Positions 16,205 to 41,001 of a stretch of DNA of 64,000 nucleotides are shown in pieces. Positions within the stretch are counted from its first letter, which is position 1; each line of letters opens with the position of its first letter. The translations under genes were made by a program, and so were the position numbers. The DNA lies in the IMG/VR virus record IMGVR_UViG_3300033463_000001, positions 32,001 through 96,000 of that record; one strand, 5' to 3'. Below the pieces are notes generated by a model. It was given only the letters and a program-made list of their open reading frames with translations. It searched no databases and was not told the DNA's origin. Origin of the DNA: a virus (taxonomy: Duplodnaviria > Heunggongvirae > Uroviricota > Caudoviricetes).

Positions 16205-16230
16205 TCAATTAACCTATACATTGAGAGGTT
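16205..16230 (-). promoter_or_regulatory. 5'-leader H-type pseudoknot (one of ~12 copies)
   Basis: ACCU-c-UCAAU-guau-AGGU-ua-AUUGA; covaries with other copies. Confidence 0.75.
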
Positions 16231-16252
16231 TTAGTTGTTATTTAAATTCGCT

Positions 16253-16341
16253 TGCAAAGATAAGTAAAATTTTTCAAATATGCAAATTTTTCGTGAAAAA
16301 AATGTAAAATATCTGCATTTTGCTAACTTGACTTTGCAAAA
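16253..16341 (-). promoter_or_regulatory. early cassette head: promoter + 24-bp palindrome
   Basis: promoter consensus; palindrome 16318-16341, offset 65. Confidence 0.85.
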
Positions 16342-16342
16342 G

Positions 16343-16415
16343 TGCCCCCATCGGGACTCGAACCCGAATCTAAGACTTAGGAGGTCCTTATTCTATCCAA
16401 TTGAACTATGGGAAC
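16343..16415 (-). tRNA. tRNA-Arg(CCT)
   Basis: aggac-CT CCT AA-gtctt; isolated in early region. Confidence 0.9.
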
Positions 16416-16494
16416 GTGCCACCGGTTACTTCAGTACGAGAACCGCAAGGATGGCGATAAGTAATGCGTTTGTAAGTGACATGGCTCTGTGTGT

Positions 16495-16914
16495 TTATTG
16501 TTCAACATCCGGTACATCAATCTCCTGAATCTGGATGAGCGGACCTTGCTCCTTACAGGTGAGTGTTTCACCCTGATAGACATTCCACTTATCCTTTGGT
16601 CTCTGGCAGGCTTTGAAGTGAAGTATCTGGCGGTAGATTCCATAACTCATGGCGATGGCTCTACGCTGCGCCTCTACCTTACACGAGCCTCCGTTCCAAC
16701 TATAGGAAGCATGCGGTGGTAGGTCTGGCACGACAATCGGTGGTATCTTCTCCTCCAGGGTGTCTTGCAGTTGTCTGCAACGCTCTGGGTGTTCCAATGT
16801 CCATGCTGCGTGGTTCATTCCGCATTGACCGGCGAGGAATCTGCCCCAATCCTCAACAGCGTCTGCTATCAGGTTGAGTTGCTCCTCCGTACAGGTGATG
16901 GTGTATTTCTTCAT
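16495..16914 (-). CDS. hypothetical phage protein
   Basis: 139-aa ORF. Confidence 0.8.
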   Translation of the reverse strand: MKKYTITCTEEQLNLIADAVEDWGRFLAGQCGMNHAAWTLEHPERCRQLQDTLEEKIPPIVVPDLPPHASYSWNGGSCKVEAQRRAIAMSYGIYRQILHFKACQRPKDKWNVYQGETLTCKEQGPLIQIQEIDVPDVEQ

Positions 16915-16926
16915 AATCGCTGTGTG

Positions 16927-17130
16927 TTATTCGGTTATTACTTCGACATGTACAATCTGGAAGTTGTGTCCAAATGGATGTGCTGTCTTCTGTTCTTCGA
17001 TGTGATTGGCTGCGGCTTCCGGTGAAGCGTAGAACACATTACAGGTTGCCGTCTCTTGTGTGTTGTAGTCACCCATCAGTCCTCCCTCGTGCCATTCGTC
17101 GTAGTCGTATTGTATTTGATAGATTTTCAT
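16927..17130 (-). CDS. hypothetical protein
   Basis: operon packing; VFYASPEAA motif. Confidence 0.7.
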   Translation of the reverse strand: MKIYQIQYDYDEWHEGGLMGDYNTQETATCNVFYASPEAAANHIEEQKTAHPFGHNFQIVHVEVITE

Positions 17131-17174
17131 AGTGTTTGTACTTAATTTAGTACACCCGATTGCGGTGGAGAGGA

Positions 17175-18080
17175 TTAGTTCCTCTCCGTCACAATATATC
17201 GGAAGTGCGGTGTTACAAGAATGCTATCCTCTGCCGCCCAGATAAGTCTGGCGTAGATTCTGCGCTTACCACCATCGGTTATTGTCACCTCGAAGCCCTT
17301 GCCGGTGCACTCTGGGTTAGTCACCTGAATGGCTGATTGGTTGAGACCCATCTTCGAGCACTTGGTGGTGAGCGTCTTTATGGAAGTGTCCCAGTATCGT
17401 TCGAGTTCTTCCATCACGTGCTGGTAGATGTATTCTGTCCACGATGGGTAGCGCAGGCACTCATGTCCGAGCATTCGTCTCAACTCACCCTGCTCGTTCT
17501 CGATAACCTTGACGCGTTGGCGTGTTAGGATGTCGTTGTAGTTGTAAACCCCAATCTCTCTACGCTCTGCGGTTAACTCATCCAATTTCTTTTTCCAAGC
17601 CGCCTTGTGGTTCTGGTAGTGGAAGAATAGTTTGGTGTGATACTCAACCATCTTGTTGATGTACGCGTCATGGAACTGACCGAATGCTTGCCGGAATGCG
17701 TCTTCCAAATTATTGTCATATGCTTTAGTCGCAGCCTGCATTGCTCCCTGAACGCGAGCCTTCTCTTGTTCAAGCAATTCCTTCTCTCGCTGGAGATAGT
17801 TGATGTCACGCTGCGAGGACTGCTGCATTTCGATTGCGGAGTGCAGGCTGAACACCTTATCCATGTTCGTGGATGGGTATTTAAACCCAAGTTTGTCACA
17901 TAGAGTATAAGGGTTGGTATTGCCGATGATTTCCTCCGTCAAGTCCTCAAAGCCACACTTGTGGAGATAGGCGATACCCTTTGCGATTGTAGCGGCTCGC
18001 TTTTCCATCGTGGCACGTTTCTTCTCAATCGCTGTGTCCTTTGACTGAATGCGCTTATCCAATGTTTCAATGTTAACCAT
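17175..18080 (-). CDS. hypothetical coiled-coil phage protein
   Basis: 301-aa ORF, C-terminal ARLIWAAEDS...PHFRYIVT. Confidence 0.85.
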   Translation of the reverse strand: MVNIETLDKRIQSKDTAIEKKRATMEKRAATIAKGIAYLHKCGFEDLTEEIIGNTNPYTLCDKLGFKYPSTNMDKVFSLHSAIEMQQSSQRDINYLQREKELLEQEKARVQGAMQAATKAYDNNLEDAFRQAFGQFHDAYINKMVEYHTKLFFHYQNHKAAWKKKLDELTAERREIGVYNYNDILTRQRVKVIENEQGELRRMLGHECLRYPSWTEYIYQHVMEELERYWDTSIKTLTTKCSKMGLNQSAIQVTNPECTGKGFEVTITDGGKRRIYARLIWAAEDSILVTPHFRYIVTERN

Positions 18081-18091
18081 AGCCGTAGGGA

Positions 18092-18355
18092 TTATAGTTG
18101 GTTCAACGTTACTTTCTCAATCTTGCCATCGTAGATGTCCATCATGTCCGTTTCCAAGTGGAAACTATCACATTCGGTGTAGTACTCATACGTACCAAGT
18201 TCTTTGCGACCGATATAGTCGCATGTCTTGTGGAAGAGTGCGTCAAGGCATTCGCCGGCGAGTTTCTTGTTATCGAAGACACCAATCGTCTTGCTGGACG
18301 GAATACCATCGTTCTCGCGCTTTAGAAATGATACTACAAACATTACGTTTCTCAT
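18092..18355 (-). CDS. hypothetical protein
   Basis: start reassigned to MRNV after pseudoknot; IGVFDNKKLA motif. Confidence 0.75.
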   Translation of the reverse strand: MRNVMFVVSFLKRENDGIPSSKTIGVFDNKKLAGECLDALFHKTCDYIGRKELGTYEYYTECDSFHLETDMMDIYDGKIEKVTLNQL

Positions 18356-18407
18356 AATTAAAAATCGGTTGATATGCCGCCACCGAAAGGCTTTAAGTGA
18401 AATACGC

Positions 18408-18497
18408 TGCAAAGGTAAGTAAAAAAAATTGGAATATGCAAATTTTTCGAGGAAAAAGTGCAGAAAATCTCAATTTTGCCAACTCTACTTTACAATT
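18408..18497 (-). promoter_or_regulatory. early cassette head: promoter + palindrome
   Basis: offset 66. Confidence 0.85.
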
Positions 18498-18854
18498 ACA
18501 CCCCTATATGGTCAAGGAAATCATTGATTTCGTACAATGCCGCACCAAGTGTAGAGTGCGTGTGTATCTCCAGAGCAATCACGAAGTTTGCCTGCTCGTG
18601 GCTCATATCAAATGTTTCTATAAGACGATTATAAGTATCGTCGCGAAATTTTGCTAATTCTAACTCACTCATAGGTTGAAGTTATTGGCGGTTGTGTTTC
18701 TTGCGAGCCTTGCGTGCTTTTGCCCGCTTAAATTCTTCACTCATCGCTGTACGCGAACGCATTTTGTCTGGAGTGTTCACAACGAGTGTCTCACTCTTCT
18801 TCTCACCAACTCGATTGATGAGGTCATTGAAAGCATGTAATAACTGCATATCGT

Positions 18855-19034
18855 TTACTTTTGTTGGTTCTTAACTTGCTTGGGCTTGATAATTCTGTAT
18901 GCCCACGCATATCCGTTGTCTATCATAAAGCGAGCGTGCTCCAGAGCCTGACGCTTGCTTGGGAATGTCTCCGGTGCATAGACGTGACCCCACTGGTTAT
19001 TGAGGACTATTGTTGTCTCGATTGCTTTTGCCAT
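18855..19034 (-). CDS. hypothetical protein
   Basis: MAKAIET..., operon packing. Confidence 0.65.
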   Translation of the reverse strand: MAKAIETTIVLNNQWGHVYAPETFPSKRQALEHARFMIDNGYAWAYRIIKPKQVKNQQK

Positions 19035-19036
19035 AG

Positions 19037-19345
19037 TTATTCCTCCGATTTTAGAAGTGGAACAGGAAACCAATAATCATCACCGGTCATTCGCTCCAAG
19101 TCTGTTTTTGAAACATATCTGTGGTCGCGATAGTTATTACCACCGGTTCTGCACCAATAGAAGATTTCATCACCCTCTTCCGGCATGCGCTTGGAACACT
19201 TAATCCATACGTCACTACATTGACTGAATGCGAAGTCTGCCATGCGCAGAAGTGCGTCCATTAGATTGGTGTTATTATTGTGGCGGAAATCCCATGCGAT
19301 GAGTGCTGCATGTTGCACAAACACGTTGCGTTGTTCTTCTGTCAT
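19037..19345 (-). CDS. DUF551-like phage protein
   Basis: WIKCSKRMPEEG...YWFPVP. Confidence 0.6.
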   Translation of the reverse strand: MTEEQRNVFVQHAALIAWDFRHNNNTNLMDALLRMADFAFSQCSDVWIKCSKRMPEEGDEIFYWCRTGGNNYRDHRYVSKTDLERMTGDDYWFPVPLLKSEE

Positions 19346-19347
19346 AA

Positions 19348-19740
19348 TCAGTCCTCCAAAATATAGGTTAAACATTTCTTGATACCTACGAGCAATGCTG
19401 CGTCATGCTCTTTTTGCAATGTGAAACTATCTGCTACAAGGCGGACGTTTCCCTTTTCATCGGTGCGCCAAAGGCCAGGAATATATCCATGCGGCAGTTG
19501 AACCACGTTAATGGAAATATCGTACCCATGTACATCACGTAGCCACTTGTGCGCTACTGCGAGTGTGGGAGCGGAAACCTCATTAGTTGCATTCCAATTC
19601 GACATCAGTAGGCGATTGCAGAGTTCGTCATTACCATTGATACGACAAAAACTATACTGACACTCCCAATTAAAACCAGCCTGCTTTAGCATTTGAGCCA
19701 CTTCAAGGCTTACATACATTTCGTGAAAAATCTCTTTCAT
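19348..19740 (-). CDS. hypothetical phage protein
   Basis: YVSLEVAQMLKQAGF...SAPTLAVAHKWLR pattern. Confidence 0.8.
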   Translation of the reverse strand: MKEIFHEMYVSLEVAQMLKQAGFNWECQYSFCRINGNDELCNRLLMSNWNATNEVSAPTLAVAHKWLRDVHGYDISINVVQLPHGYIPGLWRTDEKGNVRLVADSFTLQKEHDAALLVGIKKCLTYILED

Positions 19741-19763
19741 AATCGTGTGTTGGTAAATTCGAC

Positions 19764-19852
19764 TGCAAAGATAAGTAAAATTTTTGAATTATACAAATTT
19801 TTCACGAAAAATCGTGCAAAAAAGTTTATTTTGCAAAGTCCACTTTACAAAA
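19764..19852 (-). promoter_or_regulatory. early cassette head: promoter + palindrome
   Basis: offset 65. Confidence 0.85.
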
Positions 19853-20177
19853 CGTACCCATTTGTGTCGTGATATGCGAGTTTCTCACCAGCTGCGATGG
19901 TGCGAGCATAGAGACGTTGGTAGTCCAGAACACACTCAATAGCGGGGATAGAAGCGTCCTTAACACCGGTGAGTAGTAACTTCACAGAGTTCTCTTCATA
20001 GGTGACACCGGTCAGTTCAACGGCACAACCGGCATGCAGGACAATCATCGGCTCAATGGCGAGTTGCTTGATGTTGTTCTTCCGGAGTACCTGAACCAAG
20101 TGCTCTGTATAAATCTGTAACGGACGAAGAGACGCTTGCTCTATCTCGCGTTGGTATGCTTGTTCTTGTTTCGTCAT
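19845..20177 (-). CDS. hypothetical protein
   Basis: ATGA overlap. Confidence 0.75.
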   Translation of the reverse strand: MTKQEQAYQREIEQASLRPLQIYTEHLVQVLRKNNIKQLAIEPMIVLHAGCAVELTGVTYEENSVKLLLTGVKDASIPAIECVLDYQRLYARTIAAGEKLAYHDTNGYVL

Positions 20178-20437
20178 AGTGTTTCTTCAAGTTTTTTAAT
20201 CTCATCTGTCAACTTATTGGCAATGTCACGAATACCGGTGATGCGCCGGTTGGCTGCGGCTAAATCGTACAACTCATCCACGATGGACTTCACCGGCGCG
20301 AACTGCCTATCCCTCTTGGACTTATTATATCGCTTACCATCAGCGTTCCGATAGCACCGGCGCGTTGGGTCTCCAAACTCTTCAAAGTAGAGACATGTTT
20401 GACCCTTGTATGGTATTCTGTTTCTATTGCCCTGCAT
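20174..20437 (-). CDS. hypothetical protein
   Basis: start reassigned to MQGN. Confidence 0.65.
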   Translation of the reverse strand: MQGNRNRIPYKGQTCLYFEEFGDPTRRCYRNADGKRYNKSKRDRQFAPVKSIVDELYDLAAANRRITGIRDIANKLTDEIKKLEETL

Positions 20438-20609
20438 GTACACCTCCGATGTAATTACGTTCTGTCTTGCGTACGTCACTATACTTGGCTTGTGCTGCTG
20501 TCTGGATAACGCGCGGCTTTTCGCCGGTATCGGCAACGTGCCATTTCTTTGTCTCGTCTGTGACACCATCGTTCATTGCGTCACAAATAATCTGTCCTAA
20601 CAATCCCAT
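20424..20609 (-). CDS. hypothetical protein
   Basis: follows TATATTAG motif. Confidence 0.6.
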   Translation of the reverse strand: MGLLGQIICDAMNDGVTDETKKWHVADTGEKPRVIQTAAQAKYSDVRKTERNYIGGVHAGQ

Positions 20610-20663
20610 ATCTGTGAGTGTTTTAGTTATTACTAATATAGGGTTTTACCCCCTCTTTTTCAA

Positions 20664-21110
20664 CTAATAGAGGAAGTAAAACGCACCTGCCGCAATACCT
20701 TTTCCGATATTGGTATAGTTCTCGTCCATGAGTTGCTCTTCGGTGAGTATTTGCTCGGTATCGTCAATCTCGTTAATGACGAAGAATGTGTTGTCCACCG
20801 AGAAGTAGGTCATTACCTTGTCGGAGCGCATGCAACCGCCTACGATAAGGAAGAACTCATGGTTCTCATCATCACCGGATAAGATGTCTTTGAGAAGTTG
20901 AATACTATCCACCTTGAATGGGGTCTTCACTTCCTCAATCTCAAATGACTGAACACACCAGCCGTACTTGTTGGAGAGGTAGTCTGCTCCGTCCATCTGC
21001 ACGTCCTCAATGCGTGCGTTATCATCTACCGGCATGATTGCGCTCTCCGGCAGGTTTGCATTCTCACCATCAGTGTCCCATACGATGTTGACTAATTTGA
21101 AAAGTTTCAT
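20664..21110 (-). CDS. hypothetical acidic protein
   Basis: NIVWDTDGE...LP...DYLSNKYGWCV; preceded by pseudoknot. Confidence 0.8.
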   Translation of the reverse strand: MKLFKLVNIVWDTDGENANLPESAIMPVDDNARIEDVQMDGADYLSNKYGWCVQSFEIEEVKTPFKVDSIQLLKDILSGDDENHEFFLIVGGCMRSDKVMTYFSVDNTFFVINEIDDTEQILTEEQLMDENYTNIGKGIAAGAFYFLY

Positions 21111-21153
21111 AATTAAAAATCGGTTTGCCTATACACCGAAAGGTTTTAGAAAA

Positions 21154-21357
21154 TTACTTAAAACTCATCTTTGCCACACTATCCAGCGCGTTCAGGACGT
21201 TCATGTGGTAGTCGTAGTCTGTGATGTAAAACTTGTGTATTGGAAGTTTGCTTGTGGAAGTCTTGTAAACCTCACACAATACTCGGTCTTCCTCAACGTA
21301 CTTCAACTCGATATACACGACCTTGCGTGTCTTATCGTAAGCGTGTATGCGTGCCAT
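21154..21357 (-). CDS. hypothetical protein
   Basis: operon packing. Confidence 0.7.
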   Translation of the reverse strand: MARIHAYDKTRKVVYIELKYVEEDRVLCEVYKTSTSKLPIHKFYITDYDYHMNVLNALDSVAKMSFK

Positions 21358-21361
21358 ATCC

Positions 21362-21781
21362 TTATTTGTTATTCTCGGATAAACGTGTATAGATGTCAGT
21401 CATAATGCGCTCATACGCAAAGAGGTCAGCGAACGCATGTGGGTGAGCCATAGCACTTTCAAAGATTTCGTCTTTGAGACCCATGAACATTTTCTCGATG
21501 TTATCCACCTCTTGCGGATATTCGAAATTGTTTCCGCCAAGCACATAGCGCGTGCCATTGCACAAGTAGCGGTTATGGAAATCAACTGCGGTAGAGATAC
21601 CATAGCGGTCAACGAGAGCCTTGAAGTCATCTTTGTCGGTGATGTCCAAGACTTGTTCTCCGTCCTGCGCACCTCTATCCAACTCCCAGCGGTTGATGAT
21701 TGCTTTCTTATCTGCACCAAAGAATTGGTTTCCGAAGAAGATACGCTTGAAGTCTTCCATAGTTATTTTTACGTCTTTCAT
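21362..21781 (-). CDS. hypothetical protein
   Basis: start reassigned to MKDV after pseudoknot. Confidence 0.8.
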   Translation of the reverse strand: MKDVKITMEDFKRIFFGNQFFGADKKAIINRWELDRGAQDGEQVLDITDKDDFKALVDRYGISTAVDFHNRYLCNGTRYVLGGNNFEYPQEVDNIEKMFMGLKDEIFESAMAHPHAFADLFAYERIMTDIYTRLSENNK

Positions 21782-21837
21782 AACACAAATCCATTGCCTA
21801 TACATGGAGAGGTTTTTAGTGGGTTTTCAAATTCGGC

Positions 21838-21926
21838 TGCAAAGGTAAGTAAAATTTTTGAATTATGCAAATTTTTTGAAAGAAAAATGCAAAATATCTT
21901 CATTTTGTAAACTCTACTTTGCAAAA
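21838..21926 (-). promoter_or_regulatory. early cassette head: promoter + palindrome
   Basis: offset 65. Confidence 0.85.
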
Positions 21927-21935
21927 TAGGGGCGT

Positions 21936-22157
21936 TTATGACCTACACACCTCCAGATTCACCTCATACTGCTCCGGTGATGATGTAGCCCATTGACGGA
22001 CTGCAATCTCTTGTTTCCTTGCGCTGGCTACGTATTTGAACCGGTTTGCGTCCTCTATTTTGTCAACGGCATGGATGTGTCCATGATGGTCGATTGAGAC
22101 GTATTTCTTGGTCTGGTCAGCACCGGTGAGTGACAGAACATACGATAGTGTCTTCAT
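21936..22157 (-). CDS. hypothetical protein
   Basis: ORF within cassette. Confidence 0.7.
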   Translation of the reverse strand: MKTLSYVLSLTGADQTKKYVSIDHHGHIHAVDKIEDANRFKYVASARKQEIAVRQWATSSPEQYEVNLEVCRS

Positions 22158-22271
22158 AAGCGTTGTGTGTTTTCTGTTCGCGAACGGAGAACGTTTTATT
22201 GTTATTACCTTATTTTCAGTTAGTCATACAATCTGGATTACATATCCAGACCATCCAATTTCAAATCTGAC

Positions 22272-22349
22272 TACAAAGATAAGTAAAATTTTTGAATTAT
22301 GCAAATCTTTTGGCGGAAAAATTTATTTTGCTAAGTGGACTTTACAAAA
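22272..22349 (-). promoter_or_regulatory. early cassette head: promoter + palindrome (one helical turn closer)
   Basis: offset 54. Confidence 0.8.
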
Positions 22350-22415
22350 AAAGCACCTACTCTCACGAGCCGGTGCAATTAAATTTTATTAAACTTTAAA
22401 TATGTAAAATAACAT

Positions 22416-22922
22416 TTACCGCTGCTCAACGAGCATACGGATTTTTCTTGTGTACGATTTATCGGCAGCGTACGGCAGTTCCTCCAAGAACTTGATGTAG
22501 TCTCCGCCGGTGTACTTATACTGCACTTTGTTCTTATACCCTCGCAGACAATCAACCCAGTTACTGAATGAATAATAGGTCTTATTGTACGAATCATATA
22601 ACCCAAGCATGTTGTTCTTCTGTTTGAACACAGAACTTGTGAAGTTACCACTTTCAAGGCGAGCCTGTGCATAGACAATCTCTGGGTGTTCAATATCCAA
22701 CTGCTTGCAGACATAGTGGAAGTTGTCCTTGTTCAACGCAAGCGTGTCCAAGATTGTGTCGGGGTAAGCCGGCGGCACGATGTAGATTGTTGTCGTGTCT
22801 GTGGTCTGTTGAACCTCCCAAGCCGGTCGGGTGGTCATGGAATAAGCAGAAATAAATGTTACTGCCATTGCTACGAGTAGAATTACCTCTACCACGCGAA
22901 ATGTGAATTTCTCTTTTGCCAT
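22416..22922 (-). CDS. glucosaminidase-domain (GH73-like) peptidoglycan hydrolase with N-terminal TM
   Basis: AQARLESG, KNNMLGL, YAADKSY motifs. Confidence 0.85.
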   Translation of the reverse strand: MAKEKFTFRVVEVILLVAMAVTFISAYSMTTRPAWEVQQTTDTTTIYIVPPAYPDTILDTLALNKDNFHYVCKQLDIEHPEIVYAQARLESGNFTSSVFKQKNNMLGLYDSYNKTYYSFSNWVDCLRGYKNKVQYKYTGGDYIKFLEELPYAADKSYTRKIRMLVEQR

Positions 22923-22929
22923 AGGTGTA

Positions 22930-23574
22930 CTACATTTGAGTTTTACTATATTCGATGAGTAGTTCCTCGACTTCCCTCATCATCACGCTCTCGTCCTCGT
23001 TGTCGTTAACAGAACCGATGAGCAAGTCGTAGCGTTCTACTTTCTCGTTTGATTTAACATATACGTCAAAGTAGCCTCCGTACCCCTCATCGCGATATAC
23101 GATACTAACTTTGCCGTATTGGGTCTCAACGATGTTATCGTCTGTTTCGTTATAGTCCTCAACAGCCTCCTTTGCCTCTTCAGCGGACATGACGTGCAGG
23201 ACGTAGCCGTTATCCTCCATGTGCTTTTTGAGTTTGGCATACTCGTCCGGAGTTGCCTCCCTGCTCTTATCGTAGATGTCAGCGAAGTCGCAGTTGAACT
23301 GACCCTTTGCCAATGTGTAAGCCGGATATTGGTCGTTCTCATCTGGTAGGTAGCCAGAGAAAAGGGCGATAACCTCACCAGAACCGGTGACGCGGAATGC
23401 AACGTCTTCTGCTGCGATGTCAGCCTCAGCGTGCTCACCCAGCATTACCATGCTCTCCAGACCAATTTTCTTAGACTGCTGCATTACCTGCTGGACGGCT
23501 GTGGCTTTGGTGTCTGCCTCAACGATGGTGAGGAATGCCATATCTCTATGGAGTGTAACTTTGTATTTTGCCAT
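22930..23574 (-). CDS. hypothetical multidomain phage protein
   Basis: N-terminal VEADTKATA domain; GQ...SREATPDEY..L...GY domain. Confidence 0.8.
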   Translation of the reverse strand: MAKYKVTLHRDMAFLTIVEADTKATAVQQVMQQSKKIGLESMVMLGEHAEADIAAEDVAFRVTGSGEVIALFSGYLPDENDQYPAYTLAKGQFNCDFADIYDKSREATPDEYAKLKKHMEDNGYVLHVMSAEEAKEAVEDYNETDDNIVETQYGKVSIVYRDEGYGGYFDVYVKSNEKVERYDLLIGSVNDNEDESVMMREVEELLIEYSKTQM

Positions 23575-23592
23575 TGCTATGTTAATTTCTAT

Positions 23593-32801: not shown

Positions 32802-32835
32802 AGTCTTTCAGTTACGTGTTATACAATTATGTTAA

Positions 32836-33234: not shown

Positions 33235-34020
33235 TTATTCCTCGTTGACATAGGAACGGAATGCGTCCCAAGAAAACTCCATGCTCGTTTCGCCACAAAG
33301 CGGCTCGCGGTGGCACATGTGGTTGATACCGAATGCGTCCTTGAAGAACGTGAACGTTGAACCGCTATGCCAACCAACGCAACCAAGTTCGTTGCCGTAG
33401 TGCTCCAAGCATAGTGCTGCGTATGGTGGTAAGCCGTTATCGCAGGCTCTCTTGCCTATTGCTATTCTCGCACGAAACTTATCTCCGTACTTATTACCGA
33501 GTATCTCGTTAGCCACCTTGACACATTCGTTCATCAAGTCTTCAATACTCGGCTCGGTAGCACCGCGAGCAATACGTGCCGCATTTGCCTTATTTTGCTC
33601 TGCTACCCATTTCTTAACGAAAGCCACAATAGCCGCACGTTGCTCATCAGTCAAGTCATGTTTCGCGTCTCTATGGAACGTTGCGTAGCCTTGTTTACAA
33701 TCGGTTGGGTCTTGCTCACATAGGGTCTGCTTTTTCCATGAGCGGTTTGTGATTTCAATGCTGAATGTAAATGCTCCCTTGCTCCATTCGTTAGTGCTGA
33801 CGCACCAATACATTTCCGAGACACCCCAATTCGTTGTGACACCATAGGAAGTCTCTTGCACCCTATACCCAAAGGCTGGGTTGAGAGATTGTAGGTTCAT
33901 GCGTCCGTTACGTCCGTCCAATCGTCCGGCAGTAGTGCCATAGAGTGATAGACCCGTGCGTGCGTCATACTTCTCCAAATTGATTGCACTCAATTCTTTT
34001 TTGAACTCTTCGTAAGTCAT
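33235..34020 (-). CDS. hypothetical protein
   Basis: 261-aa ORF after promoter. Confidence 0.85.
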   Translation of the reverse strand: MTYEEFKKELSAINLEKYDARTGLSLYGTTAGRLDGRNGRMNLQSLNPAFGYRVQETSYGVTTNWGVSEMYWCVSTNEWSKGAFTFSIEITNRSWKKQTLCEQDPTDCKQGYATFHRDAKHDLTDEQRAAIVAFVKKWVAEQNKANAARIARGATEPSIEDLMNECVKVANEILGNKYGDKFRARIAIGKRACDNGLPPYAALCLEHYGNELGCVGWHSGSTFTFFKDAFGINHMCHREPLCGETSMEFSWDAFRSYVNEE

Positions 34021-34057
34021 AATCTATACGTGTTTTAGGGTTGAACTTCAAATCGAG

Positions 34058-34146
34058 TGCAAAGGTAAGTAAAAATTTTGATATATGCAAATTTTCGAGC
34101 AGAAAAATGCAAAAAATCTCATTTTTGCAATCTCTACTTTGCAATT
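34058..34146 (-). promoter_or_regulatory. early cassette head: promoter + palindrome
   Basis: offset 65. Confidence 0.82.
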
Positions 34147-34343
34147 TTCTTGTTTTTACTCTTCAACTCTTCCACAATCTCTCCCAGCAGACAACCGATG
34201 ATGAGAAAGAAGTTGAACCCAGCGACCAGCATGTTTGTCACTCCACTAATTATATCAGCGTTGGACAACTGATACAAACCGATGAAGATGAATATCAACG
34301 CGAGCAGTAGGTTTACCCAATAGTATTTGTACATGTACGGCAT
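34134..34343 (-). CDS. small membrane protein (2 TM)
   Basis: two hydrophobic helices, basic tail. Confidence 0.65.
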   Translation of the reverse strand: MPYMYKYYWVNLLLALIFIFIGLYQLSNADIISGVTNMLVAGFNFFLIIGCLLGEIVEELKSKNKKIAK

Positions 34344-34376
34344 AGTGATACGTATTAAAAGTGTTAGTGGTTAATA

Positions 34377-34706
34377 CTACATGAACAAACCCAAATACGG
34401 AGCGAAGTGCTCGCTGATGAGAGAGTTCAGTTTTGCTTCTTGCTTAATCTTCTCTGCGTAAGCCTTGCGGTCTTCCTCGCCCATGTCCATGTACTCCTGC
34501 AAGCGTCTGTTCCAATCTTCGAATTGGTTCAGTTTGTCTCGCATTTCCATTTTCTCCTGCTCGGCTTTCATAGCACGCGCGGAGAGTTCCTTGTTGCGCT
34601 GACGAAGACGTTCGATTTCCTCTTCCAATCGTTCCGTCTTCGCCTTGTACTGCGCAGCGAGTTTGTTACGCATGTTTGCCTCTATGGCTTTGCGTGTTTG
34701 TTTCAT
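34377..34706 (-). CDS. coiled-coil protein
   Basis: heptad-rich charged helix. Confidence 0.8.
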   Translation of the reverse strand: MKQTRKAIEANMRNKLAAQYKAKTERLEEEIERLRQRNKELSARAMKAEQEKMEMRDKLNQFEDWNRRLQEYMDMGEEDRKAYAEKIKQEAKLNSLISEHFAPYLGLFM

Positions 34707-34709
34707 AAC

Positions 34710-34910
34710 TTATGCGGTTACAATTTCATCGTCCGGCTGGTTGCTCCAATGGCAATCTCCGTTGTTATCAATGACGCGAATAGCGTCTTCCTCTGGGTTG
34801 CGCGCTGCGGCTTTTGCTTGTGCGTACTTGATAGCCGCAGCCTTGACCTTATAGACGTGGTTGATGAACTTACAATTCATTTCCACATAGAATTTTGTCG
34901 GTTTATCCAT
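34710..34910 (-). CDS. hypothetical protein
   Basis: operon packing. Confidence 0.7.
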   Translation of the reverse strand: MDKPTKFYVEMNCKFINHVYKVKAAAIKYAQAKAAARNPEEDAIRVIDNNGDCHWSNQPDDEIVTA

Positions 34911-34923
34911 AGTGGCTGGAGTG

Positions 34924-35172
34924 TTAAAGGTTAATAATGTCGTTAATCAGACAAGTGTACGTGCTTTCGCTAATTTCATCAAACCCATAAGGCTCAAAAT
35001 CATTAACATATTCTTCTTTCCCATAAGGACAAGCGTGAACTCCGTCTTTGTCGGCATACTGCGCATAGTATCCGTCATAACTTTCTCCGTTCCAATTTCC
35101 GTCAATAGGAACATTACCACCGAAATCTACGCGACCTGCTTTTGCTTTCTCAATCAATTCTTGTTTACTCAT
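34924..35172 (-). CDS. hypothetical acidic protein
   Basis: start reassigned to MSKQ downstream of promoter. Confidence 0.75.
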   Translation of the reverse strand: MSKQELIEKAKAGRVDFGGNVPIDGNWNGESYDGYYAQYADKDGVHACPYGKEEYVNDFEPYGFDEISESTYTCLINDIINL

Positions 35173-35233
35173 AAGAATAAGTGTTTTAAGGGTTATGCAT
35201 TGTTGCCGACAATGGTTCGTTGTTAAATTCGGC

Positions 35234-35322
35234 TGCAAAGGTAAGTAAAATTTTTGAATTATGCAAATATTTTGGTGAAAAAATGCAAAATTTCTTACTT
35301 TTGCAAAGTCAAGATAGCAAAA
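35234..35322 (-). promoter_or_regulatory. early cassette head: promoter + palindrome
   Basis: offset 65. Confidence 0.85.
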
Positions 35323-35356
35323 TGGGGTGTTTTTGTATATGCACCCCATTCGCTTA

Positions 35357-35842
35357 TCACATGTGCAGACGCGTCTCCGAGATATAGAAAGTAGTGTGTT
35401 TCTCGTTATAGCGACCATTCAAATAGCACTCCCAATGGTTGAGCAAGCCGGTCTGCATATCGGTTGTCTTGCAGATAGTATAATCCTCATCATCTTCCTT
35501 AACGTCACACTCCCAAGTCTCTCCGCTTGCCAGCATTTCATTAACCTTGAACGTTAGGAACTCATAGGCTTTGTCCTTTGAGAGGAAGACACCAAGTGGT
35601 TGTGTGCTGGTCTCATCATCGACTGCGAAGTCCATGATTACCGCATAAGCCTTTGGGAATATATTCTTGTCGAACTCATCGTTAGCCGGAGTTTCGATAA
35701 GTGCCTGGTGTACCACCGCGCTGGACTGACCGGTCTCTTTCATAACCTGCTCGGCTATGTTGAGTGCTTCGACATGATTGGACGCATTAACCGGAAAGCG
35801 GTGTGTGAACTGATATGTTGTTTCTACCAAAAAAGTCTTCAT
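35357..35842 (-). CDS. hypothetical two-domain protein
   Basis: VNASNHVEA and LGVFLSKDKA motifs; start MKTF. Confidence 0.78.
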   Translation of the reverse strand: MKTFLVETTYQFTHRFPVNASNHVEALNIAEQVMKETGQSSAVVHQALIETPANDEFDKNIFPKAYAVIMDFAVDDETSTQPLGVFLSKDKAYEFLTFKVNEMLASGETWECDVKEDDEDYTICKTTDMQTGLLNHWECYLNGRYNEKHTTFYISETRLHM

Positions 35843-35903
35843 AGGTCTTGAATATACTAAATTAAGTACAATAGGGTTCGTTGTTTGCGAGAGAGTGGGC
35901 GGT

Positions 35904-36179
35904 TTATACCAACCCACGTCTCATTAAGTCCATGCGCTTGGCGAGCCGTTCGCTTTGAAACCATTGTGGCTTACCCTCTTGGAGCGCACGATATTTGTCT
36001 GGGTACTGACGTGCCACCTCACGCTCGCACTTATGGGAGCAGCAGTAATCATCTTCACGTCTTTTCCGGAAGTGACGCTCGCATATCGGACAGATACATA
36101 CGGAGTCCACCGGACGCGCCACGTTATTGTTGATTACTCGGATTGCGAATGGAAGTTGTTCTTGCGACTTGTTAGCCAT
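35904..36179 (-). CDS. small Zn-finger protein
   Basis: CPIC...YCCSHKC. Confidence 0.72.
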   Translation of the reverse strand: MANKSQEQLPFAIRVINNNVARPVDSVCICPICERHFRKRREDDYCCSHKCEREVARQYPDKYRALQEGKPQWFQSERLAKRMDLMRRGLV

Positions 36180-36271
36180 AGTTGTGTACGATTGCCTTGT
36201 ATCATCGTGAGGTTGTTAGGGGTTGAGAAAAAAGGTGCACTTAATACGTGTCGTGCGCAACCTCCGGCGGC

Positions 36272-36613
36272 TTATGCCGTGTGCCGCCAATCGACATTGC
36301 GTGTGCCCTCGATGTCGAAGTCATTGACCCACTCGCAACCATTTTGATACCACTTACCGCTCTTGCGTGTGATACCTGCGCCCATAGCGTTCAGGCGGCT
36401 CTTGGTGGTGTTCGTTCCGCACGTCTCGCCCTCGCGTCTGCGTCCAGCGTCCGAAAACTCATAGGTCTTCGTCTTGCGGTCATAGGTGGCTATTAGGTGT
36501 CCGTGCAGGTACACACACGTTGTGTCTCCCTTGGTTGCCACTTGGGTGTTACCCTGCGAAAAGTTGCGTCCACTCTCGATAGCGTTCAGCATTGCAATTT
36601 CGATTTTCTTCAT
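36272..36613 (-). CDS. conserved phage protein
   Basis: MKKIE..M..AI...VYLHGHLIA...TTKSRLNA, a pattern seen in myovirus early genes. Confidence 0.8.
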   Translation of the reverse strand: MKKIEIAMLNAIESGRNFSQGNTQVATKGDTTCVYLHGHLIATYDRKTKTYEFSDAGRRREGETCGTNTTKSRLNAMGAGITRKSGKWYQNGCEWVNDFDIEGTRNVDWRHTA

Positions 36614-36685
36614 AGCGCGTTCATCAATTACCTATACATTGAGAGGTCTTAAAAGGGTTAATTGCCGTTGTTTCTCAAAAGCGAG

Positions 36686-36774
36686 TGCAAAGGTAAGTAA
36701 AATTTTTGACATACGCAAGTTTTTTGCCAAAATTCGTTCAAATTTCTTACTTTTGCAAAGTCGAGTTTACAAAA
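36686..36774 (-). promoter_or_regulatory. early cassette head: promoter + palindrome
   Basis: offset 65. Confidence 0.85.
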
Positions 36775-36790
36775 TAGGGGTGTTTTGTAC

Positions 36791-37036
36791 CTAAATGCCG
36801 CATTCGTAGCGTGCGAGCGTCCGCATTCCGTCTTCCAGCGTAACGCATTTGGAGAGGTCTGGACTATACTCGCTATCGTCTGGGTCTCCGAGTGCCCCCA
36901 TAGCCGCACGGAAAATGTCCCTTATAGCAGTCTCCGATAGGTCATTTTGGTCATAGCGTTCCACCTCATCAAGGAAGTACTCAAACGACTGCTGCATGTC
37001 CACGCGTGTAATATGCACCAATTCCATTCTATCCAT
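36791..37036 (-). CDS. hypothetical acidic protein
   Basis: start reassigned to MDRM. Confidence 0.7.
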   Translation of the reverse strand: MDRMELVHITRVDMQQSFEYFLDEVERYDQNDLSETAIRDIFRAAMGALGDPDDSEYSPDLSKCVTLEDGMRTLARYECGI

Positions 37037-37123
37037 GTTTATTTGCGTTTTAAGCGACTTTCGTTGTTTGGCTGATAAGTTGGCTTGCTGGGACTTAATC
37101 GTCCCACACAAGCCGTTTTGTGG

Positions 37124-37516
37124 TTAGCGGGCTGACATTTTAGATTTGGTCAGGTAGATACCGCATGGGGTGTCTTCCGTTATCTCGTCATAGTCCAGCA
37201 GTTTGGGTTCGCCCTCGTTGAGGAATGCAATGGTGTCATCCACCATTTCTTCCAGCGTGTTGAACTCATACTCATACTGCTTGACCTCTGCCTGCAACTC
37301 AATGATACGCGTCTTATAGTCTCCCTCGCGCTTGTCCGCCTGAACGTCCCTTATGAAGTCGGCGAGCGGCACGATACAGAATGTGAAGTCGGTGCGTACA
37401 TACGGAGCGTGTTCTATATCGTCCGTGAACGTGTGCAGAATGTGCATGTCCTTTGGTGCACCCTCTACTTGCTCAATGGAATAGAGGTCTCTCTCTAAAA
37501 AGTCTTGTTTGTTCAT
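37124..37516 (-). CDS. hypothetical acidic protein
   Basis: operon packing. Confidence 0.8.
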   Translation of the reverse strand: MNKQDFLERDLYSIEQVEGAPKDMHILHTFTDDIEHAPYVRTDFTFCIVPLADFIRDVQADKREGDYKTRIIELQAEVKQYEYEFNTLEEMVDDTIAFLNEGEPKLLDYDEITEDTPCGIYLTKSKMSAR

Positions 37517-37517
37517 A

Positions 37518-37775
37518 TCACTTCTTATCGTAAAAGTCGTTGGTGCTCGGTTTTACTACTACGGTAAACAAAATACCTGTTCCCAGCGCGAGGACAAGAG
37601 CGGTGTCCGCCTTGCGGTTCTTTCCGTGTTCCACGTACGCCACATATCTTTGCAGGGTCTCTTTGTTTCGGTTCATCAAGCGTTTCCAAACCTTTAGAAG
37701 TTGCTTTTCGTGAATGGGGTGGTTCTCCTGCTCGTAAGCGGCAATCAGTTGCTCAATCAATGCTTTCTTTGTCAT
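37518..37775 (-). CDS. hypothetical protein
   Basis: first gene after promoter. Confidence 0.7.
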   Translation of the reverse strand: MTKKALIEQLIAAYEQENHPIHEKQLLKVWKRLMNRNKETLQRYVAYVEHGKNRKADTALVLALGTGILFTVVVKPSTNDFYDKK

Positions 37776-37919
37776 AGACGCAATGTTTTGAATGGTTAGT
37801 ACTCTGTCCGAGAAATGAGTTAGGGGTTTGAAACTTATTCCAGCGGGTGTTGTTATCCTTATCCTACTTTGCGGTGCTCAACTTTTCGCACACTTTCAAC
37901 GCTCATTCTCGAAATTGGG

Positions 37920-38008
37920 TGCAAAGGTAAGTAAAAAAATTGACATATGCAAATTTTTCAGCAAAAATCGTTCGAAAAACCTCAAATTGCAAAGTCCACT
38001 TGACAAAA
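37920..38008 (-). promoter_or_regulatory. early cassette head: promoter + palindrome
   Basis: offset 65. Confidence 0.82.
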
Positions 38009-38077
38009 TGGGCACTTTTGTGGCAATAGGCGAGCGGTTTTTTGTCTCCGCTCACCTATCACAACCCCTTGCGGTGT

Positions 38078-38272
38078 TTAGTCTTCAACCTCAACTGCGT
38101 CAGGCGCACTATCTTCTTGCAGTCCGTCCAGCAGTTCCTTGATGTAGCACTCGCGCGCTGATTCCGCCTGCGCCAAATCAATTGCCTCTCTCTCGCTCTC
38201 CGCCTGCACGTTGATAGAGAGGTTCGTGTGGAAGTAAAGGGTGACGTTATACGTCTTCTTTTGCTTTGTCAT
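38078..38272 (-). CDS. DpnD/PcfM-like small protein
   Basis: YNVTL...INVQAESEREAIDLA. Confidence 0.6.
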   Translation of the reverse strand: MTKQKKTYNVTLYFHTNLSINVQAESEREAIDLAQAESARECYIKELLDGLQEDSAPDAVEVED

Positions 38273-38287
38273 AGTCCAAAAAAGATT

Positions 38288-38491
38288 TTAGTTATCGGTT
38301 TCAAATGTGCCGCAGGGACATTCAAGGTCTTCCTCAATATCTCCCACGTTGTCCTGAATGATGTAGTTCATGTAATCAGCACGAACCTTATCAACTGCCA
38401 ACTCTGCCGCCTTATCGGCTGCGCTCTCGTTGTCCTCAACAACAACGCGCGTTGTAATGACCAAAGTCACAAGTAATGCTTTCTTTGCCAT
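38288..38491 (-). CDS. hypothetical protein
   Basis: operon packing. Confidence 0.7.
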   Translation of the reverse strand: MAKKALLVTLVITTRVVVEDNESAADKAAELAVDKVRADYMNYIIQDNVGDIEEDLECPCGTFETDN

Positions 38492-38503
38492 AGCCGTATA
38501 GAA

Positions 38504-38980
38504 TTAAAATTTAGTCCACCAAAATTCCGTACCCATGAGGGTTTCCGTATAGTCCTTGCACCACTCGTCAAAGCGACCTTGATTCTCCAGAATGTCAAGG
38601 AAGAGCATAGGAGACCAGTCCAGCCGCTTGTTCATAAAATCGTGGCTCGCGCTTACCCAATGCGTTTTCTCCTTTGCGTCATAGTGAATATAGAGGAAAC
38701 TATCAGCAGGGACTACAACGCGTTTCTCTGCGTCAAAGAATGGGAGCAGAATGGGTCGGCACAAATGGTTCGCGTCCTTTGGGTTCGGCTCAAACTCTGG
38801 ATAGTGTTTCTCAAACCACTCATAGACGAGGTGCTGGCTTTCTATCTTGCTGACGAAGTTCTCGTCATGCCGTTTGGCTGCCTGCGACACGTACGTGTGT
38901 GTGTTCAGGCGTTCCTTGATACTTTCTACTGCGCGCAATGCTCTCAAATGCTCGCTCGGAAGACATAAATGGATAGTCAT
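38504..38980 (-). CDS. hypothetical protein
   Basis: first gene after promoter. Confidence 0.8.
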   Translation of the reverse strand: MTIHLCLPSEHLRALRAVESIKERLNTHTYVSQAAKRHDENFVSKIESQHLVYEWFEKHYPEFEPNPKDANHLCRPILLPFFDAEKRVVVPADSFLYIHYDAKEKTHWVSASHDFMNKRLDWSPMLFLDILENQGRFDEWCKDYTETLMGTEFWWTKF

Positions 38981-39004
38981 AATCGTAGGGTGTTAAAATT
39001 CGGC

Positions 39005-39093
39005 TGCAAAGGTATGTATTTTTTCTGACATACGCAAATTTTTAGCCGAAAAAGTGTTAAAAAACTCAATTTTGCAAACTCTACTTTGCAAAT
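39005..39093 (-). promoter_or_regulatory. early cassette head: promoter + palindrome
   Basis: offset 65. Confidence 0.85.
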
Positions 39094-39402
39094 GCCTCTA
39101 TCGTGCTGGGGTGCTGCACAATGCTCCAACTGCGAGGAATGTGCATACAATTGCCAATAAAATTTTGATAGCCATAGTGTCAAAACATTTCGTTATAGTC
39201 AACTCGTTCGTCCTCTGGGTCGCGTCCGAACTGCCGGTGGTCAAAGCGACTTGATGTACCTCCCCACCACCATTCTTCGGTCTCTCTACCCTCATAGTGT
39301 GTTGTTACCATAGTTGTACGTGTTTATACTAAATTAAGTACATTTGTGGTATGGGTGGGAACACGAACCCAACTTGTGAGTTCGCATTCCCTTTCTCAAC
39401 CC

Positions 39403-39960
39403 TTATTGAGCGACCTGCAACTTGCGTGCGCCCTGCTCAATGTATTGCAGACTTTCGAACTTGTAGTCGCGCACCACTACTTCGTCTTCTCCACTCAACC
39501 CTGCTGCGAGTTGCTTTGCCGATTGAGCCTTTGCAGGAATGTACGATAGTATATCGTCAAGGGTCTTTTGGTCGGTTACGACCTTTCCGTCCAACTCATA
39601 TAGGACATTCGCATGTGTGTTAGCACGCATGGTGGTGCGCAGGTACTTCTGCTCCGGGTCCTTGTCGGCACACAAAATAAGGTTATTGATTACCCATGTG
39701 CGCCCTGACGGCTTTTCCACCTGATATTCGGTGTCCATGCCTGCGCGCTCCAAGCGGTTGCGGACCGTGTTGCCAAAGTTGTAACATAGTGCCACATTGA
39801 CCAAGCGCGTGACCTTGCGGACGCGACCGATATAGGGGTTCGCGGTCTTGCGCATGTTGGGTTCGGTTGATGTAATGATAGTTACACCAAAGGTCGCAGG
39901 GGTTAAGGACTTAACGAAGTTGATTACTCGTTCTTGTTGTGCAGCACTCATAGTTGCCAT
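39403..39960 (-). CDS. conserved phage protein
   Basis: PNMRKTANPYIGRVRKV pattern; preceded by pseudoknot. Confidence 0.82.
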   Translation of the reverse strand: MATMSAAQQERVINFVKSLTPATFGVTIITSTEPNMRKTANPYIGRVRKVTRLVNVALCYNFGNTVRNRLERAGMDTEYQVEKPSGRTWVINNLILCADKDPEQKYLRTTMRANTHANVLYELDGKVVTDQKTLDDILSYIPAKAQSAKQLAAGLSGEDEVVVRDYKFESLQYIEQGARKLQVAQ

Positions 39961-40048
39961 AGTCTTTGCGAGCGGTCAGGCACTCGCGCCATTAAGTAAA
40001 ACAAAGGTTGTTCAGTTCTCGCAGGGACACTCCCTAACTGAAATCGAG

Positions 40049-40137
40049 TGCAAAGGTAAGTAAAAAAATTGACATATGCAAATTTTTCAGCAAAAATCGT
40101 TCGAAAAAGTGAATTTTGCTAACTCTACTTTGCAAAA
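40049..40137 (-). promoter_or_regulatory. early cassette head: promoter + palindrome
   Basis: offset 65. Confidence 0.85.
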
Positions 40138-40155
40138 TGGGGTCTTTTGTGCCGG

Positions 40156-40410
40156 TTAGTCCGTCCTATTGACTATCTCTAACTCCCAAGAGATTTTGTC
40201 CACATGGTCGCTTATTGCATGCATGATACGCACACATTCGGCTTGCACATCAGCACCCAGTCCGTCAGCGGCAAATACCGCTCCGTCTTCACACCAATTG
40301 ACAAACGGCTCGCCACCATTCCGGCACACCACGTTATTCTCAATCATGTTGATTAGTTGATTAGCAACGCACACACACGCAATTGCCTTGTAATCGGTCA
40401 TAGTTTCCAT
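40156..40410 (-). CDS. hypothetical protein
   Basis: start reassigned to METM. Confidence 0.7.
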   Translation of the reverse strand: METMTDYKAIACVCVANQLINMIENNVVCRNGGEPFVNWCEDGAVFAADGLGADVQAECVRIMHAISDHVDKISWELEIVNRTD

Positions 40411-40439
40411 TTGAACCACGTTTTTAGTTTGAAATCGGC

Positions 40440-40473
40440 TGCAAAGATACAAAAAAAATTTGATATATGCAAG
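40440..40473 (-). promoter_or_regulatory. Bacteroidota-type promoter, leftward member of divergent pair
   Basis: CTTG...TATCTTTG. Confidence 0.75.
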
Positions 40474-40585
40474 TTTTTGAGTAAAAAAATTTTATGTTGT
40501 AAAACATGTTTTTTCGTAAGTCGTTGTGTTTCAGCCGGTTACGTTGTTTGGCGCACAAGAAAAAAATGAAAAAATGCAGACGGGT

Positions 40586-40619
40586 ATTGCATATATGAAA
40601 AAAATTGCTTACCTTTGCA
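40586..40619 (+). promoter_or_regulatory. Bacteroidota-type promoter, rightward member of divergent pair
   Basis: ATTGCA...TACCTTTGCA. Confidence 0.75.
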
Positions 40620-40678
40620 GGCGAAATCGGTAACGAGACCGATGATGACCCTATTATTCATTATAAACGCATACGCAC

Positions 40679-40810
40679 ATGAAAGCGAAAGACATGGCAA
40701 AAATTCTCATGGAGCACCCAGATGCAGAGGTGGCTACCTACGGCATTCGTGGCAACGTGGAAAGCCACAATTTAATTTTCAACGGAGTGAATTGGTGGAT
40801 AGGCGCATAG
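40679..40810 (+). CDS. small hypothetical protein (43 aa)
   Basis: manual translation MKAKDMAKILMEHPDAEV..., below ORF-track cutoff. Confidence 0.6.
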   Translation: MKAKDMAKILMEHPDAEVATYGIRGNVESHNLIFNGVNWWIGA

Positions 40811-40849
40811 CCGGAGCGACCCAGAGACAAAATAGGGCAATAGACCCTG

Positions 40850-40938
40850 TTTTGTCAACTGGACTTTGCAAAATGAACTTTTTCAGCACTTTTTTGCGTG
40901 AAAATTTGTATATTTGAAAAAAAATACTTACCTTTGCA
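40850..40938 (+). promoter_or_regulatory. early cassette head, rightward: palindrome + promoter
   Basis: same 65-bp offset in inverted orientation. Confidence 0.85.
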
Positions 40939-41001
40939 CAAAATTTGACACGAACCCCTTTTAGAGGTGCAGGCAACACCATAAACACCGCCCCAATACC
41001 T

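What the first reader, a model, noticed from the sequence alone, without database searches (positions are those of the whole stretch)
16205..40980. Covarying H-type pseudoknot placed just upstream of start codons in ~12 early genes
Seen (mRNA sense): S1a-S2a-loop-S1b-loop-S2b, then ATG about 7-11 nt later. Copies: 16205-16230, 18365-18392, 21120-21145, 21790-21814, 25106-25131, 26149-26179, 27102-27129, 30309-30336, 33201-33226, 36624-36648, 39968-39990, plus a looser + strand copy at 40957-40980. Both stems covary. S2 is UCGGU/ACCGA, UCAAU/AUUGA, UCCAU/AUGGA, GCGAG/CUCGC or GGUG/CACC. S1 is ACCU/AGGU, AGCC/GGCU, GCC/GGC or GGC/GCC. Two copies (21120, 33201) precede internal genes with no adjacent promoter, so the element tracks start codons rather than transcription starts. 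Established: Bacteroidota largely lack Shine-Dalgarno initiation, and ribosomal protein bS1 binds pseudoknots. Inference: a phage translational enhancer, a tag for selective translation during host shut-off, or a nuclease block.
Basis: partly seen in the sequence, partly recalled or inferred. Interest (0 to 1): 0.88.

Follow-up and report, generated by a model that had tools for sequence, protein, structure and literature searches.

The report
Phage start-codon RNA pseudoknot in Bacteroidota
Many unrelated viruses of Bacteroidota bacteria place the same tiny knotted RNA fold 7-12 bases in front of gene starts, where other bacteria have their ribosome-binding signal; I found it in no catalogue and almost never in host chromosomes, and it probably controls how ribosomes start on viral messages, which is untested.

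Summary
Real, and much wider than this window. Ten of the 11 minus-strand copies belong to one family; I add a missed copy (36188-36213). 39968 is uncertain and the + strand copy is not confirmed. The window is the early region of a 327-kb Bacteroidota phage. About 280 distinct copies were found in 183 loci, including crAss-like phages and ssDNA microviruses, before more than 100 unrelated small genes. Stem 2 covaries at all five pairs. Stem 1 is nearly invariant and is supported by wobble, compensated and flipped variants. The loop-1 base covaries with stem-2 pair 4 (U.G-C versus C.A-U), a candidate base triple that needs the pseudoknot fold. 140 of 154 copies not selected on spacing sit 6-13 nt before an AUG. 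No family copy was found in 400 sampled Bacteroidota genomes; there is no Rfam match (not DUF805 or DUF805b) and no shared phage protein. Best guess (0.45): a structured ribosome-binding element read by the host 30S/bS1; rival: a repressive operator (0.25). Function is inferred, not shown. The scan earlier noted other Bacteroidota-phage pseudoknots 14-22 nt upstream of starts; sequence look-ups did not return this family.

The parts
16205..16230 (-). family pseudoknot, loop-1 C with A-U at S2 pair 4; 10 nt before ATG of 96-aa ORF 15904-16194
18365..18392 (-). GCC/GGC subclass (S1 shifted, longer loop 3); 9 nt before 87-aa ORF 18092-18355
21120..21145 (-). family pseudoknot, internal gene, 9 nt after the upstream stop; 9 nt before 148-aa ORF 20664-21110
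21790..21814 (-). family pseudoknot (C / A-U); 8 nt before 139-aa ORF 21362-21781
25106..25131 (-). family pseudoknot, last S2 pair mismatched; 9 nt before 188-aa ORF 24530-25096
26149..26179 (-). looser copy with 7-nt loop 3; 9 nt before 168-aa ORF 25633-26139
27102..27129 (-). GCC/GGC subclass with 4-bp S1; 9 nt before 255-aa ORF 26325-27092
30309..30336 (-). GCC subclass with a G.U pair in S1 (G-C at the orthologous site of sister phage L533); 8 nt before 237-aa ORF 29587-30300
33201..33226 (-). family pseudoknot, internal gene, 9 nt after the upstream stop; 11 nt before 117-aa ORF 32836-33189
36624..36648 (-). family pseudoknot (C / A-U); 10 nt before 113-aa ORF 36272-36613
39968..39990 (-). 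same geometry, different sequence (S1 GGC/GCC); 7 nt before 185-aa ORF 39403-39960; uncertain member
   Evidence: identical in the sister phage, absent before distant homologues
16244..40151 (-). context: 15-19 copies of a ~110-nt early promoter cassette with a Bacteroidota TAnnTTTG box; 9 of the 12 minus-strand elements lie in leaders of these promoters, at variable distance from the box

Best explanation
A ~25-nt H-type pseudoknot in the mRNA (A/U-rich flank, S1a ACCU, 1-nt loop U or C, 5-bp S2a, loop GUAU, S1b AGGU, loop N-A, S2b, 7-12 A/U-rich nt, AUG) acts as a structured ribosome-binding element for phage genes in Bacteroidota. SHOWN by comparison: the fold, a loop-1/stem-2 covariation, the fixed position on the sense strand, spread across unrelated phages, rarity in host chromosomes. 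[quoted passage not shown] INFERRED: with the AUG in the P site, a helix ending at -8 to -12 sits at the exit channel/platform where an SD:anti-SD helix would sit; the compact knot docks there or is caught by bS1 together with the 5' A-rich flank, and raises initiation of small early phage genes over host messages.
For: Spacing is tight on both sides: 140 of 154 copies not selected on ATG have an ORF-opening ATG 6-13 nt after S2b; 44 of 53 in the ATG-free scan lie at 8-12. 184 of 199 copies have no TAnnTTTG box within 150 nt upstream; up to 11 copies occur in one locus, before successive small genes. Downstream proteins fall into 117 clusters of 199, so the element does not track a gene function. 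A-3 (0.67) and A-6 (0.60), the host's positive start features, are kept. Carriers include crAss-like phages and microviruses with no shared protein, which points to a host ligand; the ribosome is the host factor that needs no host mRNA sites. Upstream stops avoid the 0-5 nt before the knot (4 seen, 18 expected), as expected if it must stay folded beside a terminating ribosome.
Against: The knot puts structure and C/G at -11 to -13, where host genes favour unstructured A's, which could equally repress. Host genes do not use it, which is odd for a plain enhancer. The codon-bias proxy for high expression is weak here (pooled p=0.009, per gene p=0.10) and absent across 146 loci. Two cultured Flavobacteriia-host phages show 22-nt spacing and one has no nearby ATG. 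S1 binds and unfolds pseudoknots through single-stranded A/U stretches rather than holding folded ones (PMC7038950).
Confidence: 0.45

Rival explanations
1. Repressive operator: the knot binds a protein (a host ribosomal or RNA-binding protein, or the 30S itself in a trapped state, as for rpsO) and limits or shuts off early genes; it works like the gene 32, rpsO or RegA systems.
For: Structure overlaps the ribosome footprint in a phylum where low structure promotes initiation. Invariant S1 and loop-2 letters suggest specific recognition. Multi-gene early regulons exist in T4.
Against: No RegA, S1 or S21 family match in this genome (the RegA search had no positive control). No shared phage protein among carriers. 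A host repressor would be expected to have host mRNA sites, and none was found in 400 genomes.
Confidence: 0.25
2. mRNA stability or processing element: the knot blocks 5'-to-3' decay or guides a cleavage, and sits as close to the AUG as the ribosome allows.
For: Compact knots with triples are the kind of fold that resists nucleases (own knowledge). It occurs between cistrons, where processing could occur.
Against: Compaction alone should leave a tail of longer spacers, as it does on the upstream side (53 of 155 upstream stops lie more than 31 nt away); the downstream spacer has almost none.
Confidence: 0.13
3. Ligand-sensing riboswitch (small molecule or alarmone of the infected cell), preQ1-like in size.
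For: Size, H-type topology, conserved loop 2 and closeness to the AUG.
Against: No Rfam riboswitch match; downstream genes unrelated; loop 3 is only 2-3 nt; no alternative fold seen.
Confidence: 0.07
4. Only the S2 hairpin forms; ACCU and AGGU are single-stranded recognition words, or AGGU pairs with the 16S anti-SD.
For: S1 is 3-4 bp and almost invariant; folding alone gives no stability signal (pseudoknots not modelled).
Against: With both S1 arms left free, 36 of 37 hits with AGG have ACCU upstream, and one GGG variant keeps pairing by wobble. A flipped AGGG/UCCU class with the same geometry precedes at least six genes. Loop-1 covariation needs the knot. Flanks avoid extending an SD (G at only 2 and 8 of 150).
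Confidence: 0.06
5. DNA-level operator or a selfish cassette spread by recombination between promoter repeats.
For: Inverted-repeat S2; many copies ride in repeated promoter cassettes here.
Against: S2 letters vary while pairing is kept; strand and distance are tied to the AUG; present in ssDNA microviruses; most copies lack a promoter box.
Confidence: 0.04

Closest known systems
DUF805b / DUF805 RNA motifs (Rfam RF02914, RF03081)
   Same: Small cis elements before genes; a true DUF805b copy lies in a phage locus that also carries this element (L085).
   Different: Different consensus; neither model scores any copy here. An earlier scan note puts DUF805b about 21 nt upstream (not checked), against 7-12 here.
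T4/T2 gene 32 translational operator (PMC3014915)
   Same: Phage H-type pseudoknot in a translation-initiation region with A/U-rich flanks.
   Different: Single autoregulated SSB gene, knot starting about 67 nt upstream with a long unstructured linker; here many unrelated genes, ending 7-12 nt upstream, no cognate phage protein.
E. coli and mycobacterial rpsO pseudoknot operators (PMC10931766)
   Same: Pseudoknot at the start region that meets the 30S; in mycobacteria it lies upstream of the start site.
   Different: Autoregulation of one ribosomal gene through uS15 and a U-G/C-G motif, SD-dependent hosts.
tmRNA pseudoknot PK1
   Same: E. coli PK1 has the same topology, a similar S2 and 11 nt to the resume codon.
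   Different: Bacteroidota PK1 is larger and unlike in sequence; needs SmpB and a tRNA-like domain, absent here.
bS1-binding pseudoknots (Ringquist 1995, cited in PMC10931766; PMC7038950)
   Same: bS1 has high affinity for some pseudoknots and A/U-rich leaders.
   Different: Artificial or riboswitch RNAs tested with E. coli S1; the SELEX consensus could not be retrieved for comparison.

Membership tests
H-type pseudoknot | S2 pairing conserved with compensatory change | tested here: met
   All 5 pairs change on both sides, 128 cells, 0/500 shuffles; with arms left as N, 82/101 and 46/55 hits form the four inner pairs
H-type pseudoknot | Crossing S1 pairing conserved | tested here: met
   36/37 arm co-occurrence plus a wobble variant, flipped class, A-U to G-C subclass and G.U/G-C at an orthologous site; few independent events
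H-type pseudoknot | Loop-1 base contacting S2 (triple) | tested here: met
   U with G-C 86, U with A-U 1; C with A-U 37, C with G-C 3 among 139 distinct elements; same trend in two scans with S2 free; covariation only, sequences are related
H-type pseudoknot | Both stems formed at once in solution | not testable with these tools
   Needs SHAPE/DMS or a structure; loop 3 of 2-3 nt limits S1 to about 3-4 bp
DUF805b (RF02914) | Score at or above gathering cut-off 35.6 bits | tested here: not met
   Best 10.7 bits in the genome, not at a copy; positive control 52.2 bits elsewhere in L085
DUF805 (RF03081) | Score at or above 51.1 bits | tested here: not met
   Best 20.8 bits, not at a copy
Any Rfam 15 family (incl. 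preQ1, SAM-II, r-leaders) | cmscan match over a copy | tested here: not met
Gene 32 operator | Precedes an SSB gene whose product binds it | tested here: not met
   No Pfam/PHROG SSB match for 10 downstream proteins; 117 unrelated clusters
Gene 32 operator | Long unstructured linker to the start | tested here: not met
   7-12 nt versus knot starting about 67 nt upstream
RegA regulon | regA gene; unstructured A/U sites covering the AUG | tested here: inconclusive
   No PF01818 match but no control rang; sites here are structured, unlike RegA sites
Readthrough/frameshift pseudoknot | Fixed frame and open path from upstream to downstream ORF | tested here: not met
   Frames 24/25/12, path closed by stops in 42 of 61
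tmRNA PK1 or 16S helix-45 mimic | Sequence likeness to the host's own RNA | tested here: not met
   Likeness is to E. coli, not to Bacteroidota tmRNA or helix 45
bS1-dependent translational enhancer | bS1/30S binding and raised initiation | not testable with these tools
   Needs toeprinting and reporters

The most novel reading that the evidence does not exclude
A natural, sequence-conserved structured ribosome-binding element (an IRES-like stand-in for the Shine-Dalgarno helix) that phages of two unrelated virus realms use on the anti-SD-blind Bacteroidota ribosome, and that host genes do not use.
Probability: 0.35. Interest if true: 0.92.

Novelty: new variant of a known kind. Interest (0 to 1): 0.76.

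Why it matters
How Bacteroidota ribosomes pick start codons without Shine-Dalgarno pairing is an open question; the known determinants are low structure and a few adenines. A 25-nt fold with a fixed distance to the AUG, shared by a jumbo phage, crAss-like phages and ssDNA microviruses, is a compact, directly testable handle on it. Cultured carriers with known hosts exist (Kolpuevirus 'frurule' on Bacteroides cellulosilyticus; Flavobacterium and Riemerella phages). Either sign of effect would be new biology, and it could serve as a portable expression part for Bacteroides. It also marks true start codons and Bacteroidota hosts in unannotated phages.

Tried and rejected
Rfam at gathering and at E<=10, DUF805, DUF805b and pemK models: no match. 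Phage-encoded S1, S21, RegA: none found. Readthrough/frameshift signal, suggested by the 6-9-nt gap after upstream stops: no common frame; that peak is partly built into the null, only the 0-5-nt depletion stands. tmRNA PK1 and 16S helix-45 mimicry: likeness only to E. coli. Direct anti-SD pairing of AGGU: not extended, 14-17 nt too far, broken in variant classes. Codon bias as expression proxy: inconclusive. G.U versus A.C strand asymmetry: 3 versus 3, inconclusive. Single-strand folding z-scores: uninformative. A scan for the GCC/GGC subclass in other viruses gave no true copy, so that subclass is known only from this phage and its sister. Protein-based search for relatives of 26325-27092 found none; distant homologues of 39403-39960 lack the element. 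Literature searches, including by sequence words, found no description. The supplements of Weinberg 2017 and Fremin 2023 are not held, so presence among Fremin's 8,495 unnamed viral candidates cannot be excluded.
Full report
Setting. The window is bases 32001-96000 of a 327-kb viral contig (93% complete by CheckV), read with code 11. It has Bacteroidota-type TAnnTTTG promoters repeated about 19 times, SD-free A-rich starts and a tRNA cluster. The element lies in a long minus-strand block of small genes without Pfam or PHROG function; calling them early rests on the host-type promoters and gene sizes (inference).

Observation. All 11 minus-strand copies are present with ATG 7-11 nt downstream. 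A sequence-blind descriptor anchored on all 456 called starts peaks at 7-11 nt, 12 hits against about 0.6 per position elsewhere. A further copy lies at 36188-36213. The 39968 copy has the geometry but other letters and may be a hairpin; the + strand copy does not fit. A model built from 81 copies finds copies only in this cluster of the genome.

Distribution. A pattern without an ATG term hit many unrelated viral contigs, and most hits with A/U-rich flanks were followed by an ATG. Named carriers with the usual spacing are crAss-like cr50_1, Kolpuevirus 'frurule' of Bacteroides cellulosilyticus, and pig and capybara microviruses. Flavobacterium and Riemerella phages carry it too, with longer or no spacing in the three I read. 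One locus has 11 copies. Downstream proteins are small (median 91 aa) and fall into 117 clusters of 199. Microvirus ORFs have no homologue in the larger carriers held, and the microvirus downstream genes differ from one another. Hosts: none of 150 sampled Bacteroidota genomes by model; 15 pattern matches in 400 genomes, none meeting the S2 rule, with 18 in the reversed control. A scan of 185,579 species genomes for one variant found five Bacteroidota hits, at mobile-looking or orphan loci.

Structure. Consensus: A/U-rich flank, ACCU, U or C, five S2 bases, GUAU, AGGU, N-A, five S2 bases, 7-12 nt, AUG. S2: all five pairs show two-sided changes, 128 cells, no shuffle of 500 as high, slid controls far lower (the alignment is fitted to S2). 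Independent of fitting, scans that left both S2 arms as N returned four paired inner positions in 82 of 101 and 46 of 55 hits. S1 is almost invariant, partly because the patterns fixed it. With both arms free, 36 of 37 AGG hits have ACCU upstream; the exception precedes a 4-codon ORF, and one GGG variant keeps pairing by wobble. The window's GCC subclass swaps A-U for G-C, its 30309 copy reads G.U here and G-C in a sister phage, and a separate class has S1 fully flipped with the same geometry. New here: the loop-1 base predicts S2 pair 4. U goes with G-C (86 against 1 A-U), C with A-U (37 against 3 G-C, plus 10 C-G) among 139 distinct elements. The two scans that differ only in that base show the same split, and all 11 family copies in this window obey it. 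U.G-C and C.A-U are plausibly isosteric major-groove triples (own knowledge); the counts are not phylogenetically independent.

Position. 140 of 154 copies not selected on spacing have an ORF-opening ATG 6-13 nt after S2b; five more have an ATG at 7-12 nt before a short ORF. 184 of 199 lack a promoter box within 150 nt (phage-specific promoters would be missed). Upstream stops cluster 6-9 nt before the knot and avoid 0-5 nt (4 against 18) with no common frame. This fits a fold kept clear of a terminating ribosome, or a needed non-coding flank, and does not fit recoding.

Mechanism. [quoted passage not shown] The element keeps A-3 and A-6 but replaces the -12/-13 zone with a helix, at about the distance where an SD helix would end (own knowledge). 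Carriage by tiny microviruses points to a host ligand, and absence from host mRNAs argues against a dedicated host repressor; that leaves the ribosome as the simplest reader. I therefore favour a positive structured ribosome-binding element (0.45), then a repressive or entrapping operator (0.25), a stability element (0.13), a riboswitch (0.07), hairpin only (0.06) and a DNA-level role (0.04). The sign of the effect is not shown; codon bias does not settle it and no RNA data could be obtained.

Known relatives. It works at the same place as the gene 32 and rpsO pseudoknot operators but fails their defining features. It is not DUF805, DUF805b or any Rfam family. Likeness to tmRNA PK1 and to 16S helix 45 holds for E. 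coli only. No paper in the library describes it; Fremin 2023's unnamed candidates could not be checked. Earlier notes of this scan report other Bacteroidota-phage leader pseudoknots 14-22 nt upstream of starts; these are unchecked AI notes, and look-ups by this sequence returned nothing.

Verdict. A real, apparently uncatalogued RNA motif with strong comparative support for its fold and position and an untested function. Interest 0.76; new variant of a known kind, with a 0.35 chance of being a new mode of start-site recognition.

Noticed in passing
window 11761, 13386, 14971, 17139, 28902, 35855, 39327: Seven copies of the palindrome TACTWAATTWAGTA, found nowhere else in the genome; four lie 6-15 nt before starts of genes that lack the pseudoknot. 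Operator-like or a hairpin.
   Followed up: no
L012, L014, L454-L506: Flipped-S1 class (AGGG/UCCU, S2 UGCAG/CUGCA) 7-10 nt before at least six different small genes; L012, L014 and L071 also carry the main class.
   Followed up: partly
L507 42993-43049, L512 40416-40463, L511 12555-12603: In cultured Flavobacterium and Riemerella phages the element is 22 nt from the ATG (FCL-2, with a broken S1; PJA1) or has no nearby ATG (hattifnatt9-1), unlike the usual spacing. Unexplained.
   Followed up: partly
L230, L256 (Paludibacter MAG); L232, L239, L241, L251: The few chromosomal copies follow ParB/DNA-methylase-like genes of mobile look, or precede a family of ~210-aa paralogues in freshwater Bacteroidetes MAGs (family reading is mine, not database-tested).
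   Followed up: partly
window 5064-5090 and 5814-5840 (-): Duplicated short hairpin element 12-13 nt before ATGs inside the tRNA cluster.
   Followed up: no
window 13416-40938: About 19 copies of a ~110-nt early promoter cassette, a likely substrate for gene shuffling.
   Followed up: partly
window 4956-16415 (-): Cluster of 18-20 tRNA genes.
   Followed up: no
L152 6981-7112 and 4431-4485; L085 4064-4099: Hatchet ribozyme and a twister-like hit in one carrier phage; a true DUF805b copy in another.
   Followed up: no
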